IMG/VR virus record: IMGVR_UViG_3300045000_000068
Location: 1-52,377 of that record
Direction: 5' to 3' (one strand)
From: a virus
Lineage: Duplodnaviria; Caudoviricetes
DNA length: 52,377 nucleotides
The position numbers and the translations under genes were made by a program. Below, in pieces: positions 1,376 to 52,377 of this stretch; the stretch's first letter is position 1; every line of letters begins with the position of its first letter. The notes beneath the pieces were generated by a model. The model was not told the DNA's origin. It made no database searches and saw only the letters and a list, made by a program, of their open reading frames with translations.

Positions 1376-1724
1376 TCTGGGACTCGGGCTCGGGCCCGTC
1401 GAGATCGCACCGCCGGTCCTTCCGCTGATACGCGTTTTGCGGCCTGCGGCCGCCACCGACGTAGTGGTTCCGCTACGCGGGCCTGCCGGCGCGCAGGGCC
1501 CGCCCGGCATCGCGGGCGACGCCGTCAACCTCTCCCACCTCCACACCCAGGCGGACCCGTCGTCGGTGTGGCTGATCGTGCACGGCCTGACTTTCGTCCC
1601 CTCTGGCGTGGTGGTCACCGACCACGCGGGGGCTCGTCACCACCCCCGTGTCTCGTATCCCGACGACGTGTCCGTGCGCCTCGAGTTCGACGCCGGCGTC
1701 TACGGCACCGCCCGCCTGTCCTGA
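1368..1724 (+). CDS. Putative minor tail protein with short collagen-like GXY run
   Basis: GPAGAQGPPGIAG; overlaps the previous stop. Confidence 0.7.
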   Translation: MPDLGLGLGPVEIAPPVLPLIRVLRPAAATDVVVPLRGPAGAQGPPGIAGDAVNLSHLHTQADPSSVWLIVHGLTFVPSGVVVTDHAGARHHPRVSYPDDVSVRLEFDAGVYGTARLS

Positions 1725-1739
1725 GAGGACCCGCCCTAG

Positions 1740-2291: not shown

Positions 2292-2298
2292 TCACCCG

Positions 2299-3792
2299 GT
2301 GGGCACCCACAAGTTCTTCACCCAGGTAGCCCAGGCGGACGTGATCGGTCTGACCGCGGCGCTCGCCGCGAAGGCGCGCGCGGTCGCTCTCGACGTCCGC
2401 GACTTCGGGGCGGTCGGCGACGGCACGGCGGACGACACCGCGGCGATCCAGGCCGCGATCAACGCGCTGCCGGTCGAGGGCGGCCGGGTCGTGTTCCCCG
2501 TCGGCCGGTTCAAGGTCACGGCCATGCTGACCGTGACGAACCACTGCACGGTCCTGGAGGGCGTCGCCCCGGCGAACGAGGAAGACGCCACCCACTGGAT
2601 CGGGGGCACCCGCCTGGAGGCGGGCGGCACGCTCAGCGGCAACCCGATGATCCGGGTGCAGGAGACCGCCAACCTCCAGCCGCTGTTCGGCTGCTCGATC
2701 CGCAACATCACGCTCGACGGCATGGGCGTGGCGACCGGGCGCGGCCTGCACTGGCGCTCTTACCGCTCGCACCTCGAGCGCGTCCACGTCTACCGGTTCG
2801 CGACCCACGGCATCCACGCCGAGGGCTACGGCGGCTGGGACCTGTATGACTCGGTGCTCGCGTACGTGCAGGTGTCGGCGTGCGGGTCGGCCGGACTGAT
2901 GCTCGACGTCGGCGCGTCGGACCTGCACCTGCTGCACTCGGTGCTGTTCAGCTGTGACGTCAACCTGCACATCAAGTCGTCTTCGCTCCAGGTGACCGGC
3001 TGCCACTTCTACGACGGCCGGAACAACATCCTGTTCGACGGGAACGGCTCGCGCTCGAAGTTCACCACGTGCAAGATCGAGGGCTCGAACCAGCACGGCG
3101 TGGTGCTCGACACCACCAACGGTGGCATGTCGGACATCCAGTTCACCGGCTGCAACTTCTCGTCGAACTCCGACACCACGACGAACACCTACGACCAACT
3201 GATCGTGCAGGGGCCGTCCGGCACCGGCTGCTCGCGCGTCCAGCTCGTCGGGTGCGCGTTCACCCACAAGTCGGGCCCGCTGCCGCGGTACCACGTCAAC
3301 CTGGGTGCGGCATCCCAGAGTGCTGTGATCGTCGGCAACAGCCTGGCCGGCACCGACCACTACGGCACGGCCGCGGTCAACGACGCGTCGAACGCCAGCT
3401 TCCCGGCGTACATCGCCGCGAACGGCGGCTACGGCCCGGAGGTGTACCGCAAGTGGAACGCCGCGCCGCGCACGCAGACCGTGTCGGCGGCCACCGCGAA
3501 CGTGGACGTCGGCTCCAACGCCGACCTCCAGGTCACGCTGAACACGGTCACCGCGACCACGCTCACCCCGACGGGCGGCGTCAACGGCCGGACGTGCGCG
3601 GTTGAGGTGTTCGCCGCCACCGGTGCCACCCGGACGCCGACGCTGGCGTCCACGGTGAAGCTGACCGACGGCGTCACCAGCCTGGCGCTGGCGATCCCCG
3701 CCTCGCGGGTGGGCGTGTTCCTGATCCGGTACAGCACGTTGGGCGCGCTCAACCAGTACGAGCTGGTGGGCTCCTACCTCCGGGGGGCGTAA
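2299..3792 (+). CDS. Tailspike / pectate-lyase-like beta-helix protein (putative depolymerase or receptor-binding protein)
   Basis: DVRDFGAVGDGTADDTAAIQAAI motif followed by beta-helix-like repeats. Confidence 0.8.
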   Translation: MGTHKFFTQVAQADVIGLTAALAAKARAVALDVRDFGAVGDGTADDTAAIQAAINALPVEGGRVVFPVGRFKVTAMLTVTNHCTVLEGVAPANEEDATHWIGGTRLEAGGTLSGNPMIRVQETANLQPLFGCSIRNITLDGMGVATGRGLHWRSYRSHLERVHVYRFATHGIHAEGYGGWDLYDSVLAYVQVSACGSAGLMLDVGASDLHLLHSVLFSCDVNLHIKSSSLQVTGCHFYDGRNNILFDGNGSRSKFTTCKIEGSNQHGVVLDTTNGGMSDIQFTGCNFSSNSDTTTNTYDQLIVQGPSGTGCSRVQLVGCAFTHKSGPLPRYHVNLGAASQSAVIVGNSLAGTDHYGTAAVNDASNASFPAYIAANGGYGPEVYRKWNAAPRTQTVSAATANVDVGSNADLQVTLNTVTATTLTPTGGVNGRTCAVEVFAATGATRTPTLASTVKLTDGVTSLALAIPASRVGVFLIRYSTLGALNQYELVGSYLRGA

Positions 3793-4475
3793 TGCCCATC
3801 GCACGCATCGGCGGACAGGGACTGTTCGCAGGTTCCGCGACGCAGGCAACGCTTGCACAGCCGGGAACGGCGCTGGCGGTCGGCGACTTCCGCGTGCTGA
3901 CTCTGTTCAGGTCGCTCGCGTCGGGCACCATCACCCCCCCGGCCGGGGGCACGTGGACCCAGATTCTTGCGCCGACCGCCATTCAGAGTGGGGTTCTCGG
4001 CGTCTGGTATCGCTTCCACCAGGCCGCTGATGCGTCTTTCCTTTGGGACTGGACGTCCACCGGGGGACAGAACGTAGTCGGGCGCTGCACGAACCTTTCC
4101 GGCGTTGACCCGGCAGTCCCGGTCGACTCGGCCGCGGTGACCGGCAACAGCGCAGCCACCACGGCATGGGCGAACGTTCCGAGCGTCGTCACCGCGAATC
4201 CCGACGCCTGGGCTTTCTGGTGGATCGTCCGCGGGACCGGCAACACGGCAGTGGCGCCGACCCTCGGCGCCGGCGGCTGGACCGCCGAGGGCGTGATGAA
4301 CTCCCAGGCTTCCGGGTACGCCGGACTGGGCGCGTACGAAGCGCGCCCGACACCGGGAGCGACGGGCGTGCGCACGGTGAACTCCACGACCTCCCAGGCT
4401 TGGCGCGCCGTGGCGTTCTCGATCAACCCCGTCCCCAGCCCTAGCGGCACCGGCCGCCGACTGATCATGGCGTGA
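3792..4475 (+). CDS. Hypothetical virion protein
   Basis: TAATG overlap; Thr/Ala/Gly/Trp-rich. Confidence 0.65.
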   Translation: MPIARIGGQGLFAGSATQATLAQPGTALAVGDFRVLTLFRSLASGTITPPAGGTWTQILAPTAIQSGVLGVWYRFHQAADASFLWDWTSTGGQNVVGRCTNLSGVDPAVPVDSAAVTGNSAATTAWANVPSVVTANPDAWAFWWIVRGTGNTAVAPTLGAGGWTAEGVMNSQASGYAGLGAYEARPTPGATGVRTVNSTTSQAWRAVAFSINPVPSPSGTGRRLIMA

Positions 4476-4479
4476 CGCC

Positions 4480-4827
4480 GTGCCCACCCGGTACACGGTC
4501 TGCTCCAGACCTGGCTGCCCCGAGCTGAGCTCCCAGGGTGGCCGGTGTGACGGCTGCCGGACCGCGGCCGAGCGCGACCGCGGCTCGGCAGCCCAGCGCG
4601 GCTACGACCACCGGTGGCGCCGCACCCGCGATGCCTACCTGGACGCGCACCCGTTCTGCGTCGACGACGGCTGCCTGACGATCGCTACCGACGTCGACCA
4701 CATCGACGGCAAGGGCCCGCACGGGCCCCGCGGTCACGACTGGTCGAACCTCCGCTCGCTGTGCCACTCGCACCACTCGAAGCGCACCGCTCGAGACCAG
4801 CCGGGCGGATGGCACGCGGGCATCTGA
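4480..4827 (+). CDS. HNH endonuclease (terminase-associated)
   Basis: RGYDHRW, VDHID...NLRSLCHSHHSKRT; lies before terminase. Confidence 0.85.
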   Translation: MPTRYTVCSRPGCPELSSQGGRCDGCRTAAERDRGSAAQRGYDHRWRRTRDAYLDAHPFCVDDGCLTIATDVDHIDGKGPHGPRGHDWSNLRSLCHSHHSKRTARDQPGGWHAGI

Positions 4828-4831: not shown

Positions 4832-4902
4832 TCCCCGTTCGTCCAATGGCAGGACTCCTGGTTCTGGACCAGGCAATCGAGGTTCGACCCCTTGACGAGG
4901 AG
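4832..4902 (+). tRNA. tRNA-Gln (anticodon CTG), no encoded CCA
   Basis: Acceptor TCCCCGT/ACGAGGA (one C-A mismatch), D arm GTCC/GGAC, anticodon arm CCTGG-TTCTGGA-CCAGG, T arm CGAGG-TTCGACC-CCTTG. Confidence 0.9.
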
Positions 4903-26668: not shown

Positions 26669-27691
26669 CTATCGGTTCAACATGGATCTACCACGCAGGG
26701 CCCGGTCGCGCTCGCGGCGCCCGGACTCTACCCCGATGTACCGTTCGGTCATCGCCCGGCTCGCGTGGCCCAGGAGCGCCTGTACGACCCCGATCGGGTC
26801 CGGGTGTCGCTCCGCGCAGAGCTGCTCGTACAGCGCCCGCGCGATGCTGCGCCGCACGGTGTGCACGCCCTCGCCGCGCAGCTCGGACGGGTCGACGTCC
26901 AGCACCCGCGCGAGGTGTTTCTTCACGATGATGTAGCAGCCCGCGGTCCGGCCCTGGGTCGGCACGTACTCGATCCGGCCGGTGGGGCCGACGCTCCGGC
27001 GGCGCGGGATCAGGTGCCAGTCGGGCCGCAGCGGCCCGCACGCATCCTCGTAGATCTTGAACCACAGCCGGAGCTCGTCGGCCAGCTCGGACACCACCGG
27101 CAGGACGTCGCCGTCGTCGCCGGTCTTGTGCCGGGTCCAGTCGATCTCGCCGGCGTCCAGGTCGACATCGTCCACGCGCAGCGTCAGCAGCTCGCCACCC
27201 CGGCCGCCGGTGTACGCCGCGAGCGCACACATCACGCGCTCGTACGGATCTTCGGCGCCCTCGCACAGGTCTCCGAGCTGGTCCACCGTGAGCCGCAGCC
27301 GCCGGACGCGGCGGACCTTGACGCGGGCACGGGTCGGCTGCACCACCTCGCCGGGGACGAGCCCGTTGCGGAACGACCACTCGAGGAACTGACCGAGGCT
27401 CCCGGCACGGACGTTGTACGTGCTGCCGGCCATCGAGTCGCGCAGCCCGGCCCCGTGGTGCTCCCGGCCGCGACACCCCGGGGTGCACGTGTGGCGACCC
27501 CACAGGTAGCGCTCAACGTCCGCCTCCCGCAGGTTCTTCGGAACCTTGCGGGTCGAGTCCCACCAGCTTGCGAAGCGCATCACCGTCACACGCATGTTCT
27601 TGAGCGTCTGCGGCCCGATGTGGCCGGACAGCCGCGATAGGTACACGTCAGCGTGCTGGCGCATCGTGGTCCGAGGGCCGTGGGTCGGCAT
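26669..27691 (-). CDS. int: Tyrosine recombinase/integrase
   Basis: TGGRGGEL (Arg), HTVRR, LLGHAS...TERY catalytic residues. Confidence 0.9.
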   Translation of the reverse strand: MPTHGPRTTMRQHADVYLSRLSGHIGPQTLKNMRVTVMRFASWWDSTRKVPKNLREADVERYLWGRHTCTPGCRGREHHGAGLRDSMAGSTYNVRAGSLGQFLEWSFRNGLVPGEVVQPTRARVKVRRVRRLRLTVDQLGDLCEGAEDPYERVMCALAAYTGGRGGELLTLRVDDVDLDAGEIDWTRHKTGDDGDVLPVVSELADELRLWFKIYEDACGPLRPDWHLIPRRRSVGPTGRIEYVPTQGRTAGCYIIVKKHLARVLDVDPSELRGEGVHTVRRSIARALYEQLCAERHPDPIGVVQALLGHASRAMTERYIGVESGRRERDRALRGRSMLNR

Positions 27692-27915
27692 GATTGCCAC
27701 TCTCCGCTTGCGCCCGTACCTTGTCAACCGCGAAGCTTGCAAACGGACTTATCTACGAGTATGACGGCACCCGTGACCTGCAAGTTAGCGGTGGCAAGTA
27801 TGGGGTATCTCCCCGGTTCGGCGCCGCCGTAGCTTGCCCGATTTGCTCGCGGAGAGCAAGCATGGCAAGATAGCTGCTGCTCGCCGTCACGCGGAGATCA
27901 AGGAGGGCCCAGACC

Positions 27916-28371
27916 ATGCCCGCCCAGAGGCGACTGCCGCCGCGTCCGAAGCTGCTACAGCTTCGCGACCAGAACCTCACCCACCAGCAGATCGCCGACA
28001 TGTACGGCGTACGTCGGCAGGCAGTGACGCTCGCACTCAAGGGCGTGGAGGCGCCGAAGGCCCGCCAGCGAGACTGGCCGTGGGACGTGCAGGGCCGGCA
28101 CAAGACCGGGTGGCTGTACGAGGCCATCTCGTTCTACTCGGTCGCGATGAGCAAAGAGCGCCCGCTCACCGAGCGGCAGCGCCAGCGGCTGGCCGCGTTT
28201 ATGACCATGGTCGACCGGCTACCCGGCGATTTCGTCGTGGACTACTACCCGGACACCGCGGCCGGGTTCCGGCTGCGCGAGCGTCGCGACACCGACGACG
28301 AGGATTCGCTGCTGGGCTCCCCGTCGGAGTCGACAGCCCGAGAGCAGGCGTTCTCCAACCGCGGCTGGTAG
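27916..28371 (+). CDS. Immunity repressor (L5 gp71-like)
   Basis: HTH THQQIADMYGVRRQAV, then WPW...H and VVDYYPD...GF...R..TD; AAGGAGG RBS. Confidence 0.75.
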   Translation: MPAQRRLPPRPKLLQLRDQNLTHQQIADMYGVRRQAVTLALKGVEAPKARQRDWPWDVQGRHKTGWLYEAISFYSVAMSKERPLTERQRQRLAAFMTMVDRLPGDFVVDYYPDTAAGFRLRERRDTDDEDSLLGSPSESTAREQAFSNRGW

Positions 28372-28397
28372 GACGCGCCGGGCGCCCCCCGGCACGC

Positions 28398-28432
28398 AAG
28401 AGCCCCCTCACCCGTGTGGCGAGGGGGCTCTT
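28398..28432. terminator. Bidirectional terminator
   Basis: AAGAGCCCCCTC...GAGGGGGCTCTT between convergent genes. Confidence 0.8.
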
Positions 28433-28442
28433 CGCTGTGCTC

Positions 28443-29125: not shown

Positions 29126-29697
29126 GCTGCATCCTCGTCGAGCTCGTCGAGCTCGCCCGCGCAGGCGGCCACGTAGGTGTCTGGCTCGTTCACCCAGACG
29201 ACCGCCTCGGAGACGGTCAGCGCCCGCAGCCCGCGGCGGCGTGCCCACACCAGGGCCAGGAACTCGCCGTTGTCGGCGGGGATCGCGATCTCGGTGTTCT
29301 CGCGGAGCCACCCGGCCGCCTCGGCCCGGTGCACCAGGTTCCGCCGGGCCACCGTGGTGAGCGCGCACAGCGTCTCGTACTTGGTCAGCGGCCGCACCAG
29401 CGGGCCGCCCTGGAGGGCTCGGTGCACCGCGGCCCAGTCCAGCCAGATGTCCGGCGGGGGCGGGAGCCGGGGCCCCTCTCCGGCCGGGGCCGCGCACTCC
29501 ACGCAGGAGCCGTCCGGGGCCACGCCCTCGCCGATCAGGCCGTGGCCGTTCGGGCACAGCGGCGCACCGACCGAGCGCGCGTACCACCGGGTCTGGGCCA
29601 GCTTGCGGCACCGCTTGCACTTCCCGAGCGGGGTCACGTTGTCCAGGGTCCGGTAGTGGAGATCGGCGCGGCACCTCTCGACGAGCTCGCCGGTCAC
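29122..29697 (-). CDS. Cys-motif protein, paralogue A
   Basis: CKRC, CPNGH, CVEC followed by the PPPPDIWLDW domain. Confidence 0.65.
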   Translation of the reverse strand: MTGELVERCRADLHYRTLDNVTPLGKCKRCRKLAQTRWYARSVGAPLCPNGHGLIGEGVAPDGSCVECAAPAGEGPRLPPPPDIWLDWAAVHRALQGGPLVRPLTKYETLCALTTVARRNLVHRAEAAGWLRENTEIAIPADNGEFLALVWARRRGLRALTVSEAVVWVNEPDTYVAACAGELDELDEDAA

Positions 29698-29927
29698 GCG
29701 GCGTCCCGCAGCGCCTGGGCCAGGCCGGTGTACACCACGGCCATCACCCCGCACATGCACGCGTCTTCCTGGCAGTCACCGAGGCTGGCGCCCATCGCGG
29801 CGACCAGCACCGCGGCGTCGTTGACGCCGGCTTCGATCACGATGTCCACGGTCCTGCGGTCGGCCTCGTGGCCGGCGCGCCGCAAGCGCGTCGCCACCTC
29901 GGCCTGGAGGATCTCTCTGCTGTTCAC
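29694..29927 (-). CDS. Hypothetical protein
   Basis: Preceded by the GGAAGGGTGA motif (29931-29940). Confidence 0.6.
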   Translation of the reverse strand: MNSREILQAEVATRLRRAGHEADRRTVDIVIEAGVNDAAVLVAAMGASLGDCQEDACMCGVMAVVYTGLAQALRDAA

Positions 29928-30021
29928 GTCTCACCCTTCCGTCGCGCATACGCTGCGTCGCGTGATGCGGCTGCCGCACGGTCGTTCCCCCGAACGCCGA
30001 CAGGGCCAACCTTGCACCATG

Positions 30022-32813: not shown

Positions 32814-33355
32814 CCGAGTCCCCCTTCTCAATCCAGGTCCGCTCGGACACCGTCTGGCTGACGGTCAAGGGCTCCGACTTCGACGACTTCTGGGGCAACC
32901 TGGTGATCGCCGTGGGCGAGGATGAGGCCGAGGTGGCGATCGCCCGGTTCCGTGCCCGGCAGACCCTCGCCGACGCCGGGATCACCGGGAGGATCGTCGC
33001 CCCGCCGGCGGCCGCGAACGAGCAGCCGGCCGCACCGGCCGCGCCCCCCGCGGCACCGCCCGCACCGCCGGCTCCGCCGACGTGGACACCCCCGCCCGCT
33101 GCCGCCCCCCCGGCGCCCCCGGCGTACCAGCCCCCGGCTGCCCCGCCCGCGCCTGCCGCGGCCCCCGCGGCGGGTGACCCGGACGCGTGGAAGGCCAACC
33201 CGCCGTACTGCGACCACAAGCTGCCGCGGTCCCCGTACTCGGGCACCAACTCCCGCGGTGAGTACTTCGTGTTCTTCTGCGGCGCCCCGAAGACCACGCC
33301 GAAGGACCAGAAGTGCAAGCCCGTGGACGCGATCACCGGCGCTGAGTGGAAGTGA
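32810..33355 (+). CDS. Pro/Ala-linker protein with C-terminal Cys/His domain
   Basis: PAAP repeats; CDH...FFC...C. Confidence 0.7.
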   Translation: MTESPFSIQVRSDTVWLTVKGSDFDDFWGNLVIAVGEDEAEVAIARFRARQTLADAGITGRIVAPPAAANEQPAAPAAPPAAPPAPPAPPTWTPPPAAAPPAPPAYQPPAAPPAPAAAPAAGDPDAWKANPPYCDHKLPRSPYSGTNSRGEYFVFFCGAPKTTPKDQKCKPVDAITGAEWK

Positions 33356-44826: not shown

Positions 44827-45486
44827 GCGCGATCACCAGCGCCGTGCTGGACAACCGGCTGTACTGGGCGCGCGTCACCCTGGCGGCCGGCGTCGGCCGC
44901 CCGCACGCGGTGGACCTCTACGTGGAGGGCCTCACCAAGGCGCCGCGCTACGTACTGGCGTGGCACCTGGCGCGCATGGCGTGGCGCCTGGCGCTCGGTC
45001 GGGGGGCGGTGTGACGCCCGACGAGCGGGAGCGCCTCGCGCTGGAGCTGGAGCGGGCGGCCCGGCTGGTGCGCACGTTCGAGCCGCACGCGTGGGCGGCA
45101 GAGGTCCGCGACGACGTCCCCCTGATCGAGGTCGGAGTCCGCGGGTACGCCGAGTACATCGAGGGTCGACGGTCGCCGGAGCTGCGCTCGTTCAGGATCG
45201 AGTGGTGAGCGGCGTGCACGAGCAGCGGGCGATGACGCCGGAAGAGGTCGCCGAGCATCCGGCACCACCCAGCTTGCCGCCGGTGATGGACCACGGCGCG
45301 CGGACCCGCGCGCGCACGGCCGCGTTCCGCGTCGGCCGGCTGTACCCCGGCCCGGTCGGCGAGGTGCTCGCGCTGGAGCTGCGCACGTGGGAGCAGTTCG
45401 GCTACCGGCTGGGCGGCGACAGCATGATCGCCCGGCTCGTCGAGCACGTCATGGGCCTGGACCTCGAAGACGACGCGGCCGCCTGA
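44823..45486 (+). CDS. Three coupled hypothetical genes (44823-45014, 45011-45208, 45205-45486)
   Basis: Overlap chain ending at a terminator. Confidence 0.5.
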
Positions 45487-45496
45487 CCCCGGACAC

Positions 45497-45537
45497 AAAA
45501 AAAGCCCCCGTCCTGCGCGATGCAGGCGGGGGCGTTT
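45497..45537. terminator. Bidirectional intrinsic terminator
   Basis: A7-GCCCCCG(T)CCTGC-loop-GCAGGCGGGGGC-GTTT at the convergence of the two arms. Confidence 0.85.
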
Positions 45538-45725
45538 GTCGTTCTCGGCCGGGTGACTCTCGGTCCGCAGCGGGCGGCCGGGTGGCACGCTCGCCGCATG
45601 CTGTACCAGCTTCGCTTGATCGTCGCGTGGTATCTGTCGCTGCCACACGGTAAGGCGCGGACGCGCCGGAGCCGAGAGGAAGGGTGAGTAACGCCCGACT
45701 CCGACGCATCCGCAAGTCTACATGA

Positions 45726-45962
45726 TCACTGCTCGTCTCCGTCCTCCGCCCCGCTGGCGAACACCGCGGTGCTGCGGATCAGGATCATCCGCGCGCGCGC
45801 GCCCTCCAGCTCGCCGCCGCGGTGCGGCGGTTCGAGCAGCACTTCACCGGCGGACGCGAGCATCCGGACCTGGCGCAGCCGCGCGTCCATCTCGATGATC
45901 GCCTGTCGCAGGCGGGCCAGCTCGGCCAGCAGCGCATTCCACTCGTGGTCGTCGACTTCCAT
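45726..45962 (-). CDS. Hypothetical coiled-coil protein
   Basis: GAAGGGTGA motif before the ATG. Confidence 0.6.
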   Translation of the reverse strand: MEVDDHEWNALLAELARLRQAIIEMDARLRQVRMLASAGEVLLEPPHRGGELEGARARMILIRSTAVFASGAEDGDEQ

Positions 45963-46046
45963 CGTCACCCTTCGCCCTCGGCTGAACGCCGGACCCCGAA
46001 CCGGAACGCTGCCGCTCCGGACCGAGGCTCACCCGTTCAGTCTGTC

Positions 46047-46187
46047 CTACTCGTGCCCGGTCGTCACCACCTGTGCCGGTGATGTCGCCGCCAGTGAGTC
46101 GTACGCCGTGCTGTCGTCGGCGCACGCGCCGACCACCAGGATGATCGTCCCGACGATCGCCGCGAGCACAAACCGCGCTGGGCTCAT
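46047..46187 (-). CDS. Small lipoprotein
   Basis: Hydrophobic signal with VGAC lipobox. Confidence 0.5.
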   Translation of the reverse strand: MSPARFVLAAIVGTIILVVGACADDSTAYDSLAATSPAQVVTTGHE

Positions 46188-46961
46188 GACTCGCCCTTGT
46201 CCGTCGGCGGCCACGTGAGGACGGCCGCGTGCTCGCCGCCCCCGGGGGTCCAGACAAGCGCCTCCTCGTCCGGGCCGCCCAGCTCGACCACCGCCACCGG
46301 CGGCGCATGCCGGCACGCGCCCTGCCGGATGGCTGCGAGCTTCGCCGCCTGGTAGCTGTCGAACTGCTCGCCGACGTGGTTGTCGCTCGTGTCGACGAGC
46401 ACCCAGCGCAGGTCGTCGCCGCTCATGACTCGCCCTCGCCGAGGCTGCCGTAGCAGTACGGCGCGCACTCCTGGCCTCGCCCCGCCCCGCAGTCGTCGCA
46501 CCCTGGCGCCGCGCTCTCGGGTTCGAGAACAACGGCCTGCCCGCCGAACCTGGCCGCGAGCATCCGGGCTCGGTTCTCGCCCAGGATCCCGGCCCGCTCG
46601 ACGTCTCCGTTGGGGTAGCGGACCCCCCACTCGCCGCCGCTCATGACTCGCTCTCGCCGCCGGTGACGTCGACATCCGCGACGAACAGCAGTCCCGGGAT
46701 CGCGTCGTCCACCTCGGACGTGACGGCCCAGATCTCCGGCCCGTCCGCGTCGAGAAACACGATGCGCCGGTGGCCCTCGCCCTCGGCGATCAGCCGCCCG
46801 ACGGTGGCGTACAGCTCGTCGAGCGTGGCACCCTGCGGCTCGCCTGCATCGGCCGCGCACATCGGACACCCGTCCTCGGCTGCGCCGAAGTGGTAGGCGT
46901 TCTGGTGCTCGGCCTCCAGTCGTTCTGTCCGTTCGGTGGCCGTCTCTTCCGTGGTCATCAT
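46184..46961 (-). CDS. Three coupled hypothetical genes (46641-46961, 46423-46644, 46184-46426)
   Basis: ATGA overlaps with the repeated junction GCGAGTCATGAGC. Confidence 0.6.
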
Positions 46962-47044
46962 CTCTCACCCTTCCCTGATCCAATCCCGGTTGAGCACCGG
47001 TGGCCCGGTCGGAACCTTGCGGCTCCGGCCGGACCGTCGTGCGC

Positions 47045-47401
47045 TCACTCCTCGTCGTCGCCGCGCGGGTCGCAGTCGCAGTCCTGCGTGATCGCGCCGC
47101 CGTGCTCGTCGCACGTGCGCCAGTCGCCGTTTTCGTCGAGCGCCGGATTCGGCGGCTCGGGGTGGGTGCCCTCGCCGCGTGCGAACGCGTCGAGCGTGGC
47201 CCGGTCGTAGTCCTCCGTGTCACCGGTTCCCCCGTCCTGCTCGGACGGGTGCGTGATCTCCAGGCCCAGTGCATCGAACGTCTGGGTCACCAGGTCGACG
47301 ACGTCCCCGCCGTTCCATCCGCCGGACGAGTCTTCGATCTCCCAGCACGCCGCCAGCAGGTCCAGCAGTGCCCGGCCCTCGCGCGTGGTCTTGTTCACCA
47401 T
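47045..47401 (-). CDS. Acidic hypothetical protein
   Basis: Start motif; WNGGDVVD. Confidence 0.65.
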   Translation of the reverse strand: MVNKTTREGRALLDLLAACWEIEDSSGGWNGGDVVDLVTQTFDALGLEITHPSEQDGGTGDTEDYDRATLDAFARGEGTHPEPPNPALDENGDWRTCDEHGGAITQDCDCDPRGDDEE

Positions 47402-47484
47402 GATCTTTCACCCTTCCTAGTTGATCTCCGGTTGAGCACCGGTGCCCGGCCAGGGACGTGCGCCCCTGGCCCAGCGTCGTGCGC

Positions 47485-48423
47485 TCACTCCGCCGCGCTC
47501 TCCAGGTCCGCGAGGACGCCGTGAGACACCTTGGTGACCAGCTCTGCGATCGCGCGCAGCGTCTCGACGTTCCCGCCGGACCAGCCGGCCACGTACGGAA
47601 CCGAGTAGCTCGACGTGTCCGCCCCGAGCGCACCCAGCACGACGTACGCCACCGACTCCGCCTCCGCCTCCATGCGGCCGCGGTGCAGGCGGTACTCGTC
47701 GAGATCCGCGACGTGATCCGCGCGGATATGCGCCAGCTCGTGCAGCGCCGTCTTGGACGCCTGCATGTTGTCGACGTCGGCGCGCACCCGAACGGTCTTG
47801 GTCTCCGGACTGGTGGTGCCGTTCGCCCCGCCGCAGTCGCCGCGCTCGAAGCTGTAGCCGTGGCCTTTGATCAGCCGCTCGAACGCGTCGAGCGTGTTGG
47901 TCACGTCCTCCCCGGTGAGCAGCGACGGGACGGCCGGATTCACCGGCAGCTCCTCGCCCTCGGTCTGCGAGAGGTCGAACACGTGCTCGATCTTGAAACC
48001 GCGCATGACCTTGATCGGCTTGTCGTCCGGGCCGTATGCCCGCTTGCCCTGCCGCGCGAAATCCTCGGCCTCGGCCTCACTCAGGCGTCGGGGGAGCGGT
48101 GCGAAAACCTGGAGTCCCCACGGTCCCTTGTGTCCCTCGGGACGCTTGAGGACCGACCGGCCGCGCTTCGCCCATGAGCCGTAGCTCGCGACCGCGGACA
48201 ACGTCATGCCGCGCTCCTGGGCCTGAGCCCAGAGCAACACCGTGTTGCCGAACGAGTAGCGGGTACCGAGTCCAGCGGTGAACCGCAGGTACGCGCCCCA
48301 CTCCTCGGAGCTTGCCAGCGACTCGACGGCGCTGTTCAGCTTGTTCTTCAACGCGTCGACCTTTGCCGCCCGCTCCTCCGGAGAGACCGTCGGACGCTTG
48401 CGCGTTGCCACCTTGCTTCCCAT
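47485..48423 (-). CDS. ArdC-like ssDNA-binding antirestriction protein with HExxH metallopeptidase-like domain
   Basis: YSFGNTVLL...SW...GR.V, VFDLSQTEG, LHELAH, EAESVAYVV, YVAGW. Confidence 0.8.
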   Translation of the reverse strand: MGSKVATRKRPTVSPEERAAKVDALKNKLNSAVESLASSEEWGAYLRFTAGLGTRYSFGNTVLLWAQAQERGMTLSAVASYGSWAKRGRSVLKRPEGHKGPWGLQVFAPLPRRLSEAEAEDFARQGKRAYGPDDKPIKVMRGFKIEHVFDLSQTEGEELPVNPAVPSLLTGEDVTNTLDAFERLIKGHGYSFERGDCGGANGTTSPETKTVRVRADVDNMQASKTALHELAHIRADHVADLDEYRLHRGRMEAEAESVAYVVLGALGADTSSYSVPYVAGWSGGNVETLRAIAELVTKVSHGVLADLESAAE

Positions 48424-48495
48424 GATCGTCACCCTTCTCTGTTGATTCTGCATCGGAGGATGCAATAGAACGCGCGTACGAGACGCGCGCTCGAT

Positions 48496-48726
48496 TCACT
48501 CTCCGCTTAGTTGACTCAGAACGACGTCACACAGCCGTGTGGCCCACGCGAGGATTTCCTCCCGGTTGCCCTCCACGGCAAGCCCCCCGCCACCCGCCCC
48601 GCCAAGGAACAGGACGTGCGTCCCGTCGATCGGCTCGTCCGGCGACAACTCGTCGTCAGCCTCGCTTGCGGTCATCAGGCGGACCTCCTGCGCCGATGCC
48701 GCAGACCACTCAACATGCATGCTCAT
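48496..48726 (-). CDS. Hypothetical protein
   Basis: Start motif. Confidence 0.6.
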   Translation of the reverse strand: MSMHVEWSAASAQEVRLMTASEADDELSPDEPIDGTHVLFLGGAGGGGLAVEGNREEILAWATRLCDVVLSQLSGE

Positions 48727-48805
48727 CGTTCTCACCCTTCTCTGTTGATTCCCGCCTGATCAGCGGCGGCCACGGCTGGTGCAAGACCAGCCGGACCGTG
48801 ATTGA

Positions 48806-48991
48806 TCAGTCCTCCTCTACTTGCAGCGTCCACGTGCCGACGCGGTGACCGTTGGCGTCACGGATGACGCGTTCGGTGCGCATGTCGTCGACATCGCCCG
48901 CGACCTCGCGTAGCAACGCTGCGACCTCGCCGAACGGGTTTTCGACGACCGCAGCGTTGCCGGTCTCAATCGTCAGATTGAGCTTGACCAT
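48806..48991 (-). CDS. Small phage protein (ETGNAA...EVA.LLR...DANG..VG pattern)
   Basis: Start motif. Confidence 0.65.
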   Translation of the reverse strand: MVKLNLTIETGNAAVVENPFGEVAALLREVAGDVDDMRTERVIRDANGHRVGTWTLQVEED

Positions 48992-49066
48992 TGCTCTCAC
49001 CCTTCCTTGGTTCCCGGTGAACACCGGCCGCGCGTGCAGGTACAAGACCTGCACGACGGTTGCTGT

Positions 49067-49659
49067 TCACTTCCGCACGCGTGCGCCGATCTCCGCCGTA
49101 GCGGTCCACAGTTCGTCAACCACGCCGTACGCCCATCGGGCCACGTCCTCGGTTGTGTTCCAGCCGCCGTTGTCCTCCTGGCCTCGCAGCGCGGAGTAGA
49201 AACGCTCTCCGTCCGCGGCCAGGAACGTAACGAGCCCGCCCAGCATCTCGACCGGCGTCGCGTTCGGACCCTTGAGCCCGCCCCCCGCGTCGAGCAGGTT
49301 GCCGTTGGCCCAGAGCTGCCAGACGTAGTGCCGCTGGTCCCCGGACGTGACCGTGTGCCGCACGTTCAGCGCGTACCGGCCGGACTCGTCCGCGTAAGCC
49401 GCGGTCCCGCGGCCGGCGATGATCAGTCCCATGACGCCACTAGGCTTCCGTCACGGTCGCTCGCGAGGCTTTCGCGCGCGTCCGCTACCAGCTCGCCGAG
49501 CGCGCGCAGCGCACGCGGAGACAGATAGAGGACGACCTCGCTGTGATCGCCGAACGAGAGTTCGACGTACGGCCTGCCGAACACGCCGGCCGGGCGCGTG
49601 CGCGCGTCGATCGGGTCGCCGTCCTCCACGTGCACACTCGTTGTGGTGCGTACTGCCAT
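49067..49659 (-). CDS. Two-gene cassette (49423-49659, 49067-49432)
   Basis: Start motif at 49665; overlapping ORFs. Confidence 0.6.
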
Positions 49660-49758
49660 TGCCCTCACCCTTCCTTGTGGTTCTGGCCGAATAGCCATCA
49701 CCCCGCACGTGCGTTCCGCACGCACATACGGGGGCAAAGCGATTCGGATAGATCGGGG

Positions 49759-50180
49759 CTAGCTGGTGCTCGGGAGCAACTCCGGATACACCCGCAACGC
49801 CGTTGCGCGTGGCGCGAGCCACACCGCGTTGAGCACGTGTTCCGGCGGGCAGTGCATGAGTCCGGCCCGGATATCGGGCGCCTGGTATCGCAGCACGGTT
49901 CCGGTCGACAGGCTTTCCGCGTCCGTGCGGATCGTTACCGGCCGGTCGCGCACCATGAGTACGTCGTCCTCGCGCGCCTCGCGCGCCCGAATGGTTTTCA
50001 CGTCGTCACCCGGCCCTTGTTCCACGCGGCCGGCAGGAAGCCACCGCGTGACAACCACTCGTCCAGCGCAGCGAAGTGCCCCGACATGAGATCCAGCGCT
50101 TCCAGCCGTTCGGCCTCCACCATGCCTTCCCGGTGTTCGACCAGCGACCTGATCAGCGACAGTGTTGCGTTCACGTCCAT
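49759..50180 (-). CDS. Two-gene cassette (49998-50180, 49759-50001)
   Basis: Start motif at 50188; GTGA overlap; LDEWLSRGGFLP.AW. Confidence 0.6.
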
Positions 50181-50270
50181 GATCTATTCACCCTTCCCTG
50201 TGGTTCTGCATCGGAGGATGCAACAGAACGGCCGGACCATTTCGGCCCGACCGCTCGATTCACGCTCCGA

Positions 50271-50756
50271 TCACCCGAAGATCAGCACCAGGTCACCCGG
50301 GTGCAACGCGTGCGGGTAGTCGCGGAAGCCGTTGTCCCGCTTGATCTTGGCTACCGTCGTGCCGTACAGCCGCGCGACCTGTGAGAGTTGCTGTCCTGGC
50401 CTCACCAGGTGGACGCGCAGCGTCGGCGCTCCTGCCCCGCCGCGTGCTGCGGCGGCCGCTGGGTTCCGTGTCCAGCTCGGGACGTACGTCCCATCCGCTA
50501 GGCGCCCGTTCGGCCACGTCGTGACCGCGCCCCGGATATATGGCAGCCGGCCCCATCCGTAATAGACGTTGTGCGCCGTGGTGTTCGGCCCGTGGCCTGG
50601 CCCGCACACCCGGTTGCCCTGGCGTGCACAGTTCCAACTCACGCTGTCTTCTCTGGGTTGGGCGTGAGCCGCCGCAACCGTGGTGAGAGACAAAGTGCCG
50701 AGCATGACCGTGGCGCCGATCAGCGCCAGCGCCACGCGCACCAATAGGTTTCGCAT
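50271..50756 (-). CDS. Secreted LysM-domain protein
   Basis: Signal peptide (AHA); WNC...GNRVCG; HLVRPGQQLSQVARLYGTTVAKIKRDN...LHPGDLVLI. Confidence 0.8.
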   Translation of the reverse strand: MRNLLVRVALALIGATVMLGTLSLTTVAAAHAQPREDSVSWNCARQGNRVCGPGHGPNTTAHNVYYGWGRLPYIRGAVTTWPNGRLADGTYVPSWTRNPAAAAARGGAGAPTLRVHLVRPGQQLSQVARLYGTTVAKIKRDNGFRDYPHALHPGDLVLIFG

Positions 50757-50842
50757 GATCCATCACCCTTCCTAGGTACCGCCGTTCCCGCCTGATCAGC
50801 GGCGGCCGCACACGGCGCTAGTCCGTGTGCCACCGTGATTGA

Positions 50843-50995
50843 TCAGTGCCGATCCTGGTCGTACCAGGCCGCGCGGTCGGTGCACGTCTCGCAGTAGCAC
50901 TCACCGCGTCTTGCGGCCGATTCGTCGTGATCGCTGTTGACTGCGGCCGCATCCTCGCGCGCCCAATCGGCGTGCGGGTCATATGCCTGTGTCAT
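50843..50995 (-). CDS. Small Cys-motif protein
   Basis: Start motif; CYCETC. Confidence 0.55.
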   Translation of the reverse strand: MTQAYDPHADWAREDAAAVNSDHDESAARRGECYCETCTDRAAWYDQDRH

Positions 50996-51077
50996 GGTGC
51001 TCACCCTTCCTAGGTTCCGTACGCGGCTAAGCGTCGGCGGCACCGGCTGGTATCGAGACCAGCCGGACCGTTGAAGC

Positions 51078-51341
51078 TCAGGGCTTGACGTGTTCGAGCA
51101 TCGTGCCGAACTTCTCCGTGTGACGGCGCAGCTCATCGCGCCCGTTGACCTCCGCCGACTCCCGATCGCCGCACTTGCCCTTTGCAAGTCGTGTCCAGCC
51201 GTAGCGCGTGAGGACCGATACCGAGTAGCGGTAGTAACCGGTCGGGCCGTGTCCGGCGAACCAATCGTCTTCCACGAGTAGCAGGAACGTCACGCCATCG
51301 CGCGTGCGCGTGAGTTGGTCTGCGACATAGCAGGTACCCAT
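51078..51341 (-). CDS. Hypothetical protein
   Basis: Start motif. Confidence 0.6.
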   Translation of the reverse strand: MGTCYVADQLTRTRDGVTFLLLVEDDWFAGHGPTGYYRYSVSVLTRYGWTRLAKGKCGDRESAEVNGRDELRRHTEKFGTMLEHVKP

Positions 51342-51426
51342 GATCGTCACCCTTCCTTGTGGTCCCGCCTGATCAGCGGCGGCACCGGCTGGTATCGAGA
51401 CCAGCCGGACCGTTAGTGATCAGCCG

Positions 51427-51675
51427 TTAGCGGGGCGTGAGCCATGCGTTGGATGCCACGAACGCGTCCCCGGTCTTCCAGCCGTACCGAGCAACCGAAC
51501 GCGAGGTGACCCGCACGGGCGTGTAGTTCGGTTCCATCGCCTGGCCCGGCCCGGTCGCGACTACCGCGAACCGGATTCCGTTGATCGCCTGGTACGTGAG
51601 CTTCTCGCCCGCCTCGTAGCGGGTGACGCTGTGTTCGCGCCCAAGGTGATCTGTGAACTCCGTTGTGTGTGCCAT
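51427..51675 (-). CDS. Hypothetical protein
   Basis: Start motif. Confidence 0.6.
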   Translation of the reverse strand: MAHTTEFTDHLGREHSVTRYEAGEKLTYQAINGIRFAVVATGPGQAMEPNYTPVRVTSRSVARYGWKTGDAFVASNAWLTPR

Positions 51676-51776
51676 GATCGTTCACCCTTCCTTGTGGATC
51701 TCCGTGCTCCGCCTGATCAGCGGCGGCGATGGCTGGTCAATGACCAGCCCCACCGTTGTTGATCAGGTTTTCATGA

Positions 51777-52019
51777 TCAGCCGGCGGACCGGGTGACCGT
51801 GACCGACAGGCCAGGGTGGACGTCGAAAGCACTTCCGTCTGACCACTCGATCAGGAACGAGTCCCCGTAGTTGTTGTCCAGCTTGCCGACGACCGTTACG
51901 TCCGAGCCTGTGTAGCTGGCGGGTACGTCAACCCAGCTCGCAAGCAACTGCTGTGCGTCGAGCGACACCGCGTCGCCGACCAGCAACTCGCGGGTTGTGA
52001 TCGTGTGTAGCGAAGTCAT
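51777..52019 (-). CDS. Hypothetical protein, first gene of the leftward array
   Basis: Variant motif GGAAGGGACA. Confidence 0.6.
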   Translation of the reverse strand: MTSLHTITTRELLVGDAVSLDAQQLLASWVDVPASYTGSDVTVVGKLDNNYGDSFLIEWSDGSAFDVHPGLSVTVTRSAG

Positions 52020-52377
52020 GGTGTGTCCCTTCCTTGGTTGGCACTCCCCGCGGCACCCGGCAACCCTGCGAACAGGACGACCGGATGCCACGGCCAATGC
52101 CAGGACCGAAGTCCAAGCACCAGTGGAAGTTGTGGTGATCCCACCCCTTGCGAGGTGGGTTGTTCTATGCGGTAAGTCGATCACCCTGGCGCTACACGGC
52201 CCCTTGTCCTACTGCCTGTCGCGGGTGCTTCCGAGAGGTTCGCTCTCGACCGGGCTACCTGAGCCATGATCGGCTCTGTATCTCCCATCCGGTGATGTTG
52301 CTACCGGGCCTGTGCCCCCGCGGGGGGAGTGATGATCGACTCTGTTGTCCGTCTCCGAGGGCTTTCCGGATCTTCCC

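What the first reader, a model, noticed from the sequence alone, without database searches (positions are those of the whole stretch)
46641..52102. Modular gene-cassette array: ~12 cassettes separated by sequence-divergent, structure-conserved hairpins
Seen: almost every 1-2 gene unit in this leftward arm is separated by a ~60-nt imperfect palindrome with one architecture: outer stem (~7 bp), short mismatch, CGGYGG/CCGTYG-type stem, small internal loop, 8-9 bp inner stem. At least three sequence families exist. A: CCGCCTGATCAGCGGCGG...TGATCAG at 48751, 50787, 51364, 51709, plus relative 51017. B: CCGGTTGAGCACCGG...GCGCTCA at 46986, 47428, plus relative 49014. C: TTCTGCATCGGAGGATGCAA...CTCGATTCA at 48446, 50203. 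Stems covary: outer CTGATCA/TGATCAG vs GTGAACA/TGTTCAC; middle CGGTGG/CCGTCG vs CGGTGC/GCGTCG; inner stems differ completely. In 7 elements the upstream TGA stop lies at the element end (47045, 47485, 48496, 48806, 49067, 50843, 51078). Inference: a standardized expression or exchange chassis for early host-takeover/anti-defence genes; cargo includes ArdC-like and LysM proteins.
Basis: partly seen in the sequence, partly recalled or inferred. Interest (0 to 1): 0.9.

Follow-up and report, generated by a model that had tools for sequence, protein, structure and literature searches.

The report
Repeated hairpin spacers between phage genes
A high-GC phage separates the small genes of one leftward operon with a repeated spacer of about 80 bases, made of a long RNA hairpin that starts at the stop codon plus a fixed ribosome-binding leader; this is a new variant of the intergenic repeats already known in phages, and its function is untested.

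Summary
In the leftward arm (45726-52019, 18 genes), 12 of 12 non-overlapping intergenic gaps (72-101 nt) hold one module. Each module has a long hairpin (outer stem P1, inner stem P2), then an A-rich leader, then the extended Shine-Dalgarno GGAAGGGTGA and the start codon. A thirteenth hairpin lies upstream of the first gene.

The stems covary: 12 of 20 pairs show double changes, matched by 0 of 500 shuffles. In 7 of 12 modules the UGA stop lies inside P1. I also found a third helix, P3, in 12 of 12 modules. It encloses the 3' arm of P1, so P1 and P3 exclude each other.

The modules are mosaics of four blocks (5' block, P2 core, 3' block, leader). A covariance model finds the element nowhere else in this genome, in about 1.8 Mb of loci (most from related phages and prophages), or convincingly in 156 actinomycete genomes. 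No relative shares the arm, so gene exchange at the elements could not be tested.

The modules lack promoters, U-tracts (11 of 13 hairpins), attC cores and an integron integrase. My best reading is mRNA punctuation: processing, stability and standardised translation starts. The closest analogues are T4 PeSLs, actinophage SAS/ESAS and T7 RNase III sites. This is a new variant of a known kind.

The parts
45726..52019 (-). Leftward operon-like arm of 18 small genes (g1 52019-51777 down to g18 45962-45726). The cargo is mostly ORFans, plus g12 (ArdC-like, 48423-47485) and g5 (LysM, 50756-50271).
   Evidence: ORF map and translations; Pfam and PHROGs scans.
52036..52104 (-). Hairpin U upstream of g1, followed by AACCAAGGAAGGG and the g1 ATG. 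It has no P3 and no stop codon in the stem.
   Evidence: z = -4.71. MFE -46.1 kcal/mol on the minus strand against -32.2 on the plus strand.
51676..51779 (-). Module g1->g2 (type A4). Hairpin at 51707-51768; P3 is CCGCC/GGCGG. The g1 TGA stop lies 5' of P1.
   Evidence: z = -4.46; R1 score 69.0 bits; P3.
51342..51429 (-). Module g2->g3 (type A3). Hairpin at 51362-51425. The g2 TAA stop lies 4 nt 5' of P1.
   Evidence: z = -4.04; R1 score 78.2 bits. Shares a 38-nt identical core with Ax.
50996..51080 (-). Module g3->g4 (type Ax). Hairpin at 51015-51083. The TGA stop is inside P1. Both arms of the outer stem and P3 differ from A3, although the core is identical.
   Evidence: z = -3.20; R1 score 69.8 bits.
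50757..50845 (-). Module g4->g5 (type A2). Hairpin at 50785-50848. The TGA stop is inside P1. The flanks are identical to A1 but P2 is different.
   Evidence: z = -4.01; R1 score 59.7 bits.
50181..50273 (-). Module g5->g6 (type C2). P2 hairpin plus P3 (UGCAUC/GAUGCA) at 50201-50258. The g5 stop lies 12 nt 5' of the P1-type arm. The tail after P2 is partly U-rich.
   Evidence: z = -5.08; flagged as terminator-like; 4 U in the 8-nt tail.
49660..49761 (-). Module g7->g8 (type E). Hairpin at 49680-49754; P3 is UGGC/GCCA. The TAG stop lies 5' of the stem.
   Evidence: z = -4.27. Not detected by model R1.
48992..49069 (-). Module g9->g10 (type B3). Hairpin at 49011-49072. The TGA stop is inside P1.
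   Evidence: z = -3.17; R1 score 70.3 bits.
48727..48808 (-). Module g10->g11 (type A1). Hairpin at 48749-48811. The TGA stop is inside P1. Its 20-nt leader is identical to that of C1.
   Evidence: z = -3.29; R1 score 77.4 bits.
48424..48498 (-). Module g11->g12 (type C1). P2 plus P3 at 48444-48500. The TGA stop is inside the P1-type arm.
   Evidence: z = -3.13; 4 U in the 8-nt tail.
47402..47487 (-). Module g12->g13 (type B2). Hairpin at 47426-47489. The TGA stop is inside P1. P3 is CCGGU/ACCGG.
   Evidence: z = -5.15; R1 score 51.4 bits.
46962..47047 (-). Module g13->g14 (type B1). Hairpin at 46984-47049. The TGA stop is inside P1. The flanks are identical to B2 but P2 is different.
   Evidence: z = -4.12; R1 score 63.3 bits.
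45963..46049 (-). Module g17->g18 (type D), outside the finding's range. Hairpin at 45968-46042. The TAG stop lies 5' of P1. P3 is CGGC/GCCG.
   Evidence: z = -2.07; R1 score 54.5 bits.
45486..45540 (.). Canonical bidirectional terminator closing both the rightward genes and the leftward arm. It is a GC-rich stem with a run of 7 U on the minus-sense RNA.

Best explanation
The elements are paralogous intercistronic modules that act in the polycistronic mRNA of the leftward arm.

Each module runs from the stop codon of one gene to the start codon of the next. It holds:
(i) a 20-27-pair bipartite hairpin, with outer stem P1 (usually containing the UGA stop), an internal loop, and a GC-rich inner stem P2;
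(ii) a short alternative hairpin P3 whose loop is the 3' arm of P1;
(iii) an unstructured A-rich leader;
(iv) the extended Shine-Dalgarno GGAAGGGTGA.

Inferred function. The hairpin punctuates the transcript after transcription. It would act as a nuclease processing site and/or a 3'-end barrier, and as an insulator between cistrons. The fixed leader and Shine-Dalgarno sequence would give every unrelated small gene the same translation start.

Because the modules are direct repeats built from interchangeable blocks, they are also likely substrates for recombination. Exchange among the modules themselves is shown. Exchange of the genes between them is only inferred.
For: Position and orientation. 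All 12 of the 12 gaps have the same order: stop, hairpin, P3, leader, Shine-Dalgarno, start. All are on the coding strand.

Structure. The hairpins fold far better than shuffles. P1 and P2 covary.

P3. It is present in 12 of 12 modules with 6 different sequences. The chance of a Watson-Crick stem of 4 or more pairs at a random site is 0.15. P3 appears on the start-codon side only.
- With the first 18 nt held single-stranded, P3 forms in the six A- and B-family modules g1g2, g2g3, g4g5, g10g11, g12g13 and g13g14.
- With the RNA starting at P3, it forms as a 5'-terminal hairpin in 10 of 12 modules.

Strand. Summed MFE is -476 kcal/mol on the sense strand against -422 on the other. Seven of 13 hairpins favour the sense strand by more than 2 kcal/mol, 2 favour the other strand and 4 are equal.

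Location. The Shine-Dalgarno word is almost private to this arm. The element occurs nowhere else in the genome: the best unrelated R1 hit scores 17.7 bits against 51-78 bits for the 9 copies.

What is absent. There is no sigma-70-like promoter in the arm (0 found). Eleven of 13 hairpins have 0-1 U in the 8 nt after the stem. The arm itself ends in a canonical terminator with a U7 run.

Mosaic structure. A1/A2, B1/B2 and C1/C2 share identical flanks around unrelated P2 cores. A3/Ax share a 38-nt identical core with both outer arms changed. A1 and C1 share a 20-nt leader.

Precedent. Five RNase III signals punctuate the T7 early polycistronic mRNA, and single-strand cleavage at internal loops leaves stabilising 3' hairpins (passages of PMC3867540).
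Against: - No expression data exist. No sequencing run was listed, so transcription, processing and timing are all unshown.
- All the evidence comes from 12-13 paralogues in one genome. Related copies can inflate the shuffle controls.
- Template switching within quasi-palindromes (recalled, not tested) can create compensatory-looking changes in DNA without any selection on RNA.
- The strand test is only modest. Wobble pairs number 32 of 289 on the sense strand and 26 of 287 on the other. Types B3 and A4 fold better on the plus strand.
- In family B the middle stem pairs through G-T on the plus strand but is A-C mismatched in the sense RNA (read).
- Element D is barely better than shuffles.
- No nuclease site can be read from sequence alone.
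Confidence: 0.5

Rival explanations
1. The hairpins are intrinsic terminators or attenuators without U-tracts. They would lower transcription step by step along the arm, as has been claimed for the early region of actinophage phiC31.
For: They are stable GC-rich hairpins placed directly after stop codons. C1 and C2 have 4 U in the 8-nt tail, and C2 is flagged as terminator-like. A paper title reporting rho-independent terminators without poly-U tails in the phiC31 early region was seen only as a reference in PMC2602773; the paper itself is not held. In T4 PeSLs the stem-loop terminates transcription (PMC2839356 passages).
Against: Eleven of 13 hairpins have 0-1 U after the stem. [quoted passage not shown] The same arm ends in a canonical U7 terminator, so U-tract terminators are used where a stop is needed. 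With no internal promoters, 12 serial terminators would starve the distal genes. Termination also does not explain P3 or the conserved leader.
Confidence: 0.15
2. The elements act as DNA. They would be inverted-repeat binding sites for phage regulators (like ESAS or the 17-18-bp start-associated repeats of cluster O and EG phages), or folded single-strand recombination sites that work like integron attC.
For: P3 is a short palindrome 3-19 nt before the Shine-Dalgarno sequence, much like the start-associated inverted repeats reported for actinophages (PMC7302621 and PMC3203893 passages). Conserved arms around a variable centre, a position at the 3' end of each gene, and a uniform orientation all resemble attC (features recalled). 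The wobble-pair count does not favour either strand.
Against: The palindromes have six different sequences in one genome, which would need several different binding specificities. None of the 13 elements has the paired attC core and inverse-core motifs. The only recombinase is an ordinary tyrosine integrase 18 kb away; it scores 24 bits on the integron-integrase model, whose cut-off is 265. The stop codon in P1 and the fixed distance to the Shine-Dalgarno sequence point to mRNA. Total folding energy favours the sense strand.
Confidence: 0.12
3. The module is a ribosome-operated switch. A ribosome that reaches the UGA inside P1 melts P1, P3 then forms, and this changes translation or decay of the next cistron. 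That would be long-range translational coupling.
For: In 7 of 12 modules the stop is inside P1. P1 and P3 exclude each other, and both vary by paired changes. Holding the first 18 nt single-stranded makes P3 appear in the six A- and B-family modules.
Against: The Shine-Dalgarno sequence is mostly unpaired when the RNA is folded from P3 onward (2-7 of 10 nt paired), so no obvious on/off effect follows. In 5 of 12 modules the real stop lies outside P1. Tightly coupled gene pairs in the same arm use ATGA or GTGA overlaps instead.
Confidence: 0.1
4. The elements are selfish or neutral palindromic repeats (REP- or MITE-like) that spread by recombination and have no function for the phage.
For: They are multicopy, palindromic, intergenic and mosaic.
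Against: They are confined to one arm, in one orientation, one per gap, and fused in register to the stop codon and the Shine-Dalgarno sequence. None was found in 5 of 5 actinomycete genomes searched. Only single weak hits of 31-37 bits appeared in 3 of 151 further genomes. There are no terminal repeats, no target duplications and no transposase.
Confidence: 0.08

Closest known systems
PeSL (promoter-early stem-loop) cassettes of T4-type phages (PMC2839356 passages; PMC4122927 abstract)
   Same: [quoted passage not shown] It contains a stem-loop and ends in a Shine-Dalgarno sequence. It flanks small ORFan genes in a plastic region, and its repeats are proposed to act as recombination sites.
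   Different: PeSLs contain a strong sigma-70-like early promoter, and their stem-loop terminates transcription. Here no promoter was found and no U-tract in 11 of 13 hairpins. There is no sequence similarity. PeSL-mediated gene swapping was shown between sister phages; here it could not be tested.
Start-associated sequences (SAS) and extended SAS (ESAS) of cluster K mycobacteriophages and cluster EF Microbacterium phages (PMC3203893 and PMC7302621 passages)
   Same: An unusually conserved motif at the ribosome-binding position. It is restricted to non-structural genes, lies in one orientation a few bases before mostly ATG starts, and is linked to inverted repeats immediately upstream. Its function is unknown.
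   Different: The motif sequence is different: GGGATAGGAGCCC there, GGAAGGGTGA here. ESAS are 17-bp repeats of conserved sequence with a 4-13-bp spacer, and their variation does not support RNA pairing. Here the arms covary, the 'spacer' is itself a 26-35-nt hairpin, and the stop codon is built into the outer stem.
RNase III processing signals of the T7 early polycistronic mRNA (PMC3867540 passages; structural details recalled)
   Same: Irregular hairpins with internal loops lie between the cistrons of a phage polycistronic transcript. Cleavage leaves a protective 3' hairpin. The helix length here (20-27 pairs) is in the range I recall for RNase III substrates.
   Different: Cleavage is untested here. 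T7 has 5 sites, not one per gene. T7 has no reported alternative 5' hairpin like P3 and no fixed leader. The host RNase III is actinobacterial.
Integron attC sites (features recalled)
   Same: Imperfect palindromes of about 60 nt at the 3' end of each gene unit, in uniform orientation, with conserved arms, a variable centre and structure more conserved than sequence.
   Different: The core and inverse-core motifs are absent. There is no integron integrase and no attI or Pc. Each unit here carries its own conserved leader and Shine-Dalgarno sequence.
U-tail-less terminators of the phiC31 early region (only the title was seen)
   Same: Actinophage origin, and hairpins without a poly-U tail.
   Different: I could not read the paper, so no feature-by-feature comparison is possible. 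Later biochemistry argues that actinobacterial RNA polymerase needs a U-tract.

Membership tests
PeSL cassette | Sigma-70-like early promoter inside the intergenic motif | tested here: not met
   0 promoter-like sites in 45300-52377 on either strand. The scan uses a simple sigma-70 consensus, so actinomycete or phage-specific promoters are not excluded.
PeSL cassette | Stable stem-loop between the upstream stop and the downstream Shine-Dalgarno sequence and start, repeated next to ORFans | tested here: met
   12 of 12 gaps. The cargo is ORFan-rich.
PeSL cassette | Gene gain, loss or swap between relatives with breakpoints in the motifs | not testable with these tools
   No relative sharing the arm was found. 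Only exchange among the modules themselves is visible.
SAS/ESAS | The 13-bp SAS consensus of cluster K or cluster EF | tested here: not met
   The motif here is GGAAGGGTGA, not the published consensus sequences.
SAS/ESAS | Conserved asymmetric motif at the ribosome-binding position of non-structural genes, in one orientation, with upstream inverted repeats | tested here: met
   10 of 11 copies of the word are on the minus strand, 9 of them in the arm. Inverted repeats lie upstream in 12 of 12 modules.
SAS/ESAS | Inverted repeats of conserved sequence whose variation does not support RNA pairing | tested here: not met
   Here the variation is compensatory.
Integron attC | Paired core and inverse-core motifs at the two ends of the palindrome | tested here: not met
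   0 of 13 elements have both motifs. B1 and B2 each match one motif per strand (the same site read on both strands), never the two together on one strand. The motifs were recalled from memory.
Integron attC | An integron integrase next to the array | tested here: not met
   The single tyrosine recombinase at 26669-27742 scores 24 bits on TIGR02249, whose cut-off is 265.
Canonical intrinsic terminator | U-rich tract directly after a GC-rich hairpin | tested here: not met
   0-1 U in the next 8 nt for 11 of 13 hairpins, and 4 U for C1 and C2. Only C2 was flagged by the scan.
RNase III processing signal | About two helical turns of irregular duplex with an internal loop, cleaved by RNase III | tested here: inconclusive
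   The hairpins have 20-27 pairs with internal loops. Cleavage cannot be tested here.
Any Rfam family | Score at or above the family's gathering threshold | tested here: not met
   The only hit in the window is a tRNA at 4832-4902. In the arm there are three sub-threshold hits of 21-27 bits against thresholds of 36-47 bits.

The most novel reading that the evidence does not exclude
Each module is a self-refolding processing site.

The long P1+P2 helix would be cut in its internal loop by a double-strand-specific nuclease such as RNase III. P2 then stays as the 3' cap of the upstream cistron. The freed 3' arm of P1 snaps into P3, which becomes a 5'-terminal cap for the downstream cistron, directly ahead of a standard leader and Shine-Dalgarno sequence.

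One 80-nt element would therefore turn a polycistronic RNA into individually protected, equally translatable monocistronic mRNAs. Because the stop codon sits inside P1, a terminating ribosome would transiently block the cut, tying processing to translation.

The mosaic direct repeats would also let the phage swap ORFan genes as ready-to-express units.
Probability: 0.15. Interest if true: 0.75.

Novelty: new variant of a known kind. Interest (0 to 1): 0.5.

Why it matters
Repeated start-associated motifs and inverted repeats have been catalogued in several actinophage clusters for more than a decade without a mechanism. For cluster K ESAS the authors found little support for RNA hairpin formation.

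This genome offers a case in which the structure signal is clear. There are three helices with paired changes, two of them mutually exclusive, a stop codon built into one helix, and a fixed translation leader. That gives concrete mutants to test: break and restore P1, P2 or P3, or move the stop codon.

If the modules do process or insulate mRNA, they would explain how phages express strings of unrelated small accessory genes evenly. They would also be a compact natural part for building operons in high-GC actinomycetes. If they also mediate gene exchange, they would be an actinophage counterpart of T4 PeSLs.

Tried and rejected
Searches for the arm DNA
- Megablast and blastn of the arm against 50,697 phage records gave no match.
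- An 85-nt module as query gave only chance hits of 25-34 nt, mostly inside annotated genes.

Exact-pattern scans
- The family-A 18-mer in IMG/VR gave 6 single hits. None is the element.
- A leader pattern was too unspecific: 107 single hits, discarded.
- The family-A tail plus Shine-Dalgarno pattern in metagenome contigs gave 14 single hits, none confirmed by the model.

Relatives found by terminase
- There were 80 IMG/VR loci and 42 genome loci, from Streptomyces, Micromonospora, Microbispora, Nonomuraea, Amycolatopsis and others, at 26-72% identity.
- They contain no R1 hit better than 22 bits.
- tblastn with 400 window ORFs found only ORFs between 4465 and 21958 in the 80 IMG/VR loci, and nothing from 45.7-52.4 kb in the other fetched loci.
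- They show no enriched Shine-Dalgarno word and no comparable repeated 11-mer.

Arm proteins
- The ArdC-like g12 found no related IMG/VR locus, 8 distant phage hits below 35% identity, and a best non-self homologue at 48% identity among 504.
- g9 and g5 have no phage hits.

Host-repeat idea
- 0 of 5 genomes had a hit, and 3 of 151 had single hits of 31-37 bits. Only 35-150 candidates per genome were scored, so the sensitivity is limited.

Measures that did not discriminate
- A raw MFE sliding scan is useless at 70% GC; about 75 windows per strand reach -38 kcal/mol.
- TGATCA is not over-represented once GATC-rich codon usage is allowed for: 31 observed against 23.9 expected under a third-order Markov model.

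Resources that were not available
- No RNA holder was listed, and no sequencing run at all was listed.
- Ingham et al. 1995 is not held. Paper supplements are closed; the SAS/ESAS alignments in supplementary figures might bear on the comparison.

Full report
What the window is

The window is the whole record: 52,377 bases in one contig, 70% GC. It carries tailed-phage structural genes, a tyrosine integrase at 26669-27742 and one tRNA. Its first and last 15 bases are identical. The contig is therefore circularly closed or terminally redundant, even though the record is classed as linear with an estimated completeness of 69. The terminase has 58-72% identical relatives in IMG/VR contigs and in prophages of Streptomyces, Micromonospora, Microbispora, Nonomuraea, Amycolatopsis and Actinopolyspora. 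The host is thus probably a filamentous actinomycete, but it is not identified.

Checking the observation

From 52019 down to 45726 the minus strand carries 18 small genes. Five junctions overlap (ATGA, GTGA or a 10-nt overlap).

One lies at 45968-46042, outside the reported range. The other, at 49680-49754, is a fourth sequence type.

Folded as sense RNA, 11 of the gap hairpins and a further hairpin upstream of g1 (52036-52104) have z-scores of -3.1 to -5.2, with 0-3 of 200 shuffles as good. The element at 45968-46042 is weaker, z = -2.07.

Four further modules keep a UGA at the same stem position although it is not their stop.

Covariation

Nine copies (A1-A4, Ax, B1-B3, D) align well. RNAalifold gives a 7-pair outer stem, P1, and a 13-pair inner stem, P2. 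Twelve of the 20 pairs show changes on both sides.

On this alignment 88.8% of cells pair, against 72.3% in shuffles. All five measures exceed all 500 shuffles. Sliding the 3' partner by 1-3 columns drops pairing to 27-46% and gives at most 8 double-change pairs.

There are two caveats. The copies are paralogues in one genome, which can inflate the shuffle control. Intrastrand template switching in quasi-palindromes (recalled, not tested) can also mimic compensatory change.

The remaining four hairpins (C1, C2, E, U) have unrelated stem sequences but the same overall form.

More than a hairpin: the whole spacer is a module

After each hairpin comes an A-rich leader of the type GAAYCAMMA, then GGAAGGGTGA, then 2-7 nt and the start codon, which is ATG at all 12 module starts. 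The word GGAAGGGTG occurs 11 times in the genome. Ten copies are on the minus strand and 9 of those are in this arm.

A third helix, P3

In 12 of 12 modules the 3' arm of P1 is flanked by a Watson-Crick stem of 4-6 pairs. Six different sequences are used:
- CCGCC/GGCGG
- CCGGU/ACCGG
- UGCAUC/GAUGCA
- CGGC/GCCG
- ACGC/GCGU
- UGGC/GCCA

The same rule applied to 50,000 random genome positions gives a stem of 4 or more pairs 15% of the time.

P3 uses the 3' arm of P1 as its loop and overlaps the bottom of the inner stem, so P1 and P3 cannot coexist. When the first 18 nt (through 12 nt past the stop) are held single-stranded, as under a terminating ribosome, P3 appears in the predicted fold of six A- and B-family modules (g1g2, g2g3, g4g5, g10g11, g12g13, g13g14). 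When the RNA is started at P3, it forms as a 5'-terminal hairpin in 10 of 12 modules, with the Shine-Dalgarno sequence mostly open. P3 exists only on the start-codon side, so the element is not symmetric. That argues for a strand-specific role.

Mosaic structure

- A1 and A2 share an identical 16-nt 5' block and a 23-nt 3' block around unrelated P2 cores.
- B1/B2 (16 and 17 nt) and C1/C2 (12 and 20 nt) show the same pattern.
- A3 and Ax share a 38-nt identical core, yet differ in both arms of P1, in P3 and in the leader. Pairing is kept in every case.
- A1 (family A) and C1 (family C) share a 20-nt leader.
- A3, A4 and E share a 16-17-nt leader.

The modules have therefore exchanged blocks with each other. 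The longest exact repeat between any two modules is 38 nt, and otherwise at most 23 nt.

RNA or DNA?

The summed MFE is -476 kcal/mol on the sense strand and -422 on the other. Seven of 13 hairpins favour the sense strand by more than 2 kcal/mol, 2 favour the other strand and 4 are equal. Wobble-pair counts (32 of 289 against 26 of 287) do not discriminate. In family B the middle stem pairs better on the plus strand. The strand evidence is modest. The stronger arguments for RNA are positional: the stop codon in P1, the fixed order and the fixed distance to the Shine-Dalgarno sequence.

What it is not

- Rfam has nothing above threshold in the arm.
- No sigma-70-like promoter is present (0 found).
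- Eleven of 13 hairpins have 0-1 U in the 8 nt after the stem. Only C1 and C2 have 4. The arm itself ends at 45486-45540 in a canonical hairpin with a U7 run.
- Mycobacterial RNA polymerase did not terminate at hairpins lacking U-tracts (abstract of PMC3993855).
- The paired attC core motifs are absent from all 13 elements. The only recombinase scores 24 bits on the integron-integrase model against a cut-off of 265.

Distribution

Covariance model R1 was built from the 9 alignable copies. In the window it recovers those 9 copies at 51-78 bits. It also hits the palindromic mirror of A3 at 32.9 bits. The best unrelated hit is 17.7 bits. It does not detect C1, C2, E or U.

Elsewhere the results were:
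- 857,439 bases of 80 IMG/VR terminase-relative loci: nothing above 19.2 bits.
- 20 pattern-derived loci: nothing above 22.7 bits.
- 836,808 bases of 40 prophage loci: nothing above 22.3 bits.
- 5 actinomycete genomes: 0 of 5.
- 151 Actinomycetes-class genomes: single hits of 31-37 bits in 3 of 151. One of these is a long perfect palindrome with similar ends. Few candidates per genome were scored.

None of the arm's proteins has a match in the relatives' loci. g12's best non-self homologue is 48% identical.

Cargo

g12 has an ArdC N-terminal domain; its matches to metallopeptidase families are below Pfam's thresholds, though PHROGs lists an anti-restriction and a metallo-protease family, and its homologues are annotated as ArdC-like. 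g5 is a LysM protein with a hydrophobic N-terminus. g6 matches a PHROG labelled HNH endonuclease. The other seven of the ten proteins scanned have no family.

Interpretation

The best-supported reading (confidence 0.5) is an mRNA-level punctuation module. The hairpin would mark and protect the end of one cistron and insulate the next. The constant leader and strong Shine-Dalgarno sequence would standardise initiation.

Precedents for this reading:
- The T7 early mRNA has five RNase III signals. Single-strand cleavage at internal loops leaves stabilising 3' hairpins (PMC3867540 passages).
- T4-type PeSLs are conserved stop-to-start intergenic cassettes that flank ORFans and mediate their shuffling (PMC2839356, PMC4122927). 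They contain a promoter and a terminating stem-loop, which this element lacks.
- Actinophage SAS/ESAS and related start-associated inverted repeats are the nearest described relatives in kind. For ESAS the authors found no support for RNA pairing; here the support is clear.

The most novel reading still open (probability 0.15) is that cleavage of P1+P2 frees the 3' arm to refold into P3. The upstream cistron would then end in P2 and the downstream one would begin with P3.

Rivals are U-tail-less attenuators (0.15), DNA-level binding or recombination sites (0.12), a ribosome-driven coupling switch (0.10) and functionless palindromic repeats (0.08).

Verdict

The element is a new variant of a known kind of phage intergenic repeat, seen so far in a single genome, with no experimental or comparative evidence for its function.

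Noticed in passing
window 1-15 and 52363-52377: The first and last 15 bases are identical (TTTCCGGATCTTCCC). The contig is therefore probably a closed circle or terminally redundant, and the region upstream of the arm continues into 16-700.
   Followed up: partly
window 120-700: A non-coding stretch of about 600 nt packed with G-rich direct repeats: GGGCAGGGG seven times, CATGGGTGCA four times, TGCACAGGGG three times and GATCATGGG three times. It lies between the leftward arm and the rightward genes. It could be an origin, a packaging region or a regulatory region.
   Followed up: partly
window 46184-46190, 46423-46427, 46641-46645: The three hairpin-free junctions g14/g15, g15/g16 and g16/g17 share a second conserved junction, about 15 nt around an ATGA overlap (GCGAGTCATGAGC). 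All three upstream proteins end in -GES.
   Followed up: no
window 45678-45687 (+): The only plus-strand copy of GGAAGGGTGA lies in the 185-nt gap between the arm's last gene and the terminator. No start codon follows at a usable distance. It may be a relic module.
   Followed up: no
window 29931-29940 (-): One more minus-strand copy of the extended Shine-Dalgarno sequence lies outside the arm. It precedes a 77-aa GTG ORF (29694-29927) beside the large central intergenic region at 29.9-30.6 kb. Model R1 finds no hairpin there.
   Followed up: partly
window 28368-28437 and 33003-33072 (-): These are the two most stable 70-nt windows of the genome (-53 kcal/mol). Other strong windows lie at about 4536-4620 and about 26273. 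Their nature was not examined.
   Followed up: no
window 392-4475 (+): An LtfC-like domain protein and a pectate-lyase/beta-helix protein (tail-fibre or depolymerase type) lie upstream of the terminase. This is an unusual position unless the genome map is circularly permuted.
   Followed up: no
L250 1501-1561 (G061:C1:13198-13258): A 23-bp perfect palindromic hairpin in an unnamed actinomycete genome shares the CTGATCA...TGATCAGGCGG ends of family A (37.3 bits). It is a single copy in that genome as far as the search went.
   Followed up: partly
window 46047-46187 (-), 50271-50756 (-): g17 is a 46-aa protein with a hydrophobic segment followed by GAC, which looks lipoprotein-like. g5 has a signal-peptide-like N-terminus before its LysM domain. 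Some of the cargo is therefore probably exported.
   Followed up: no
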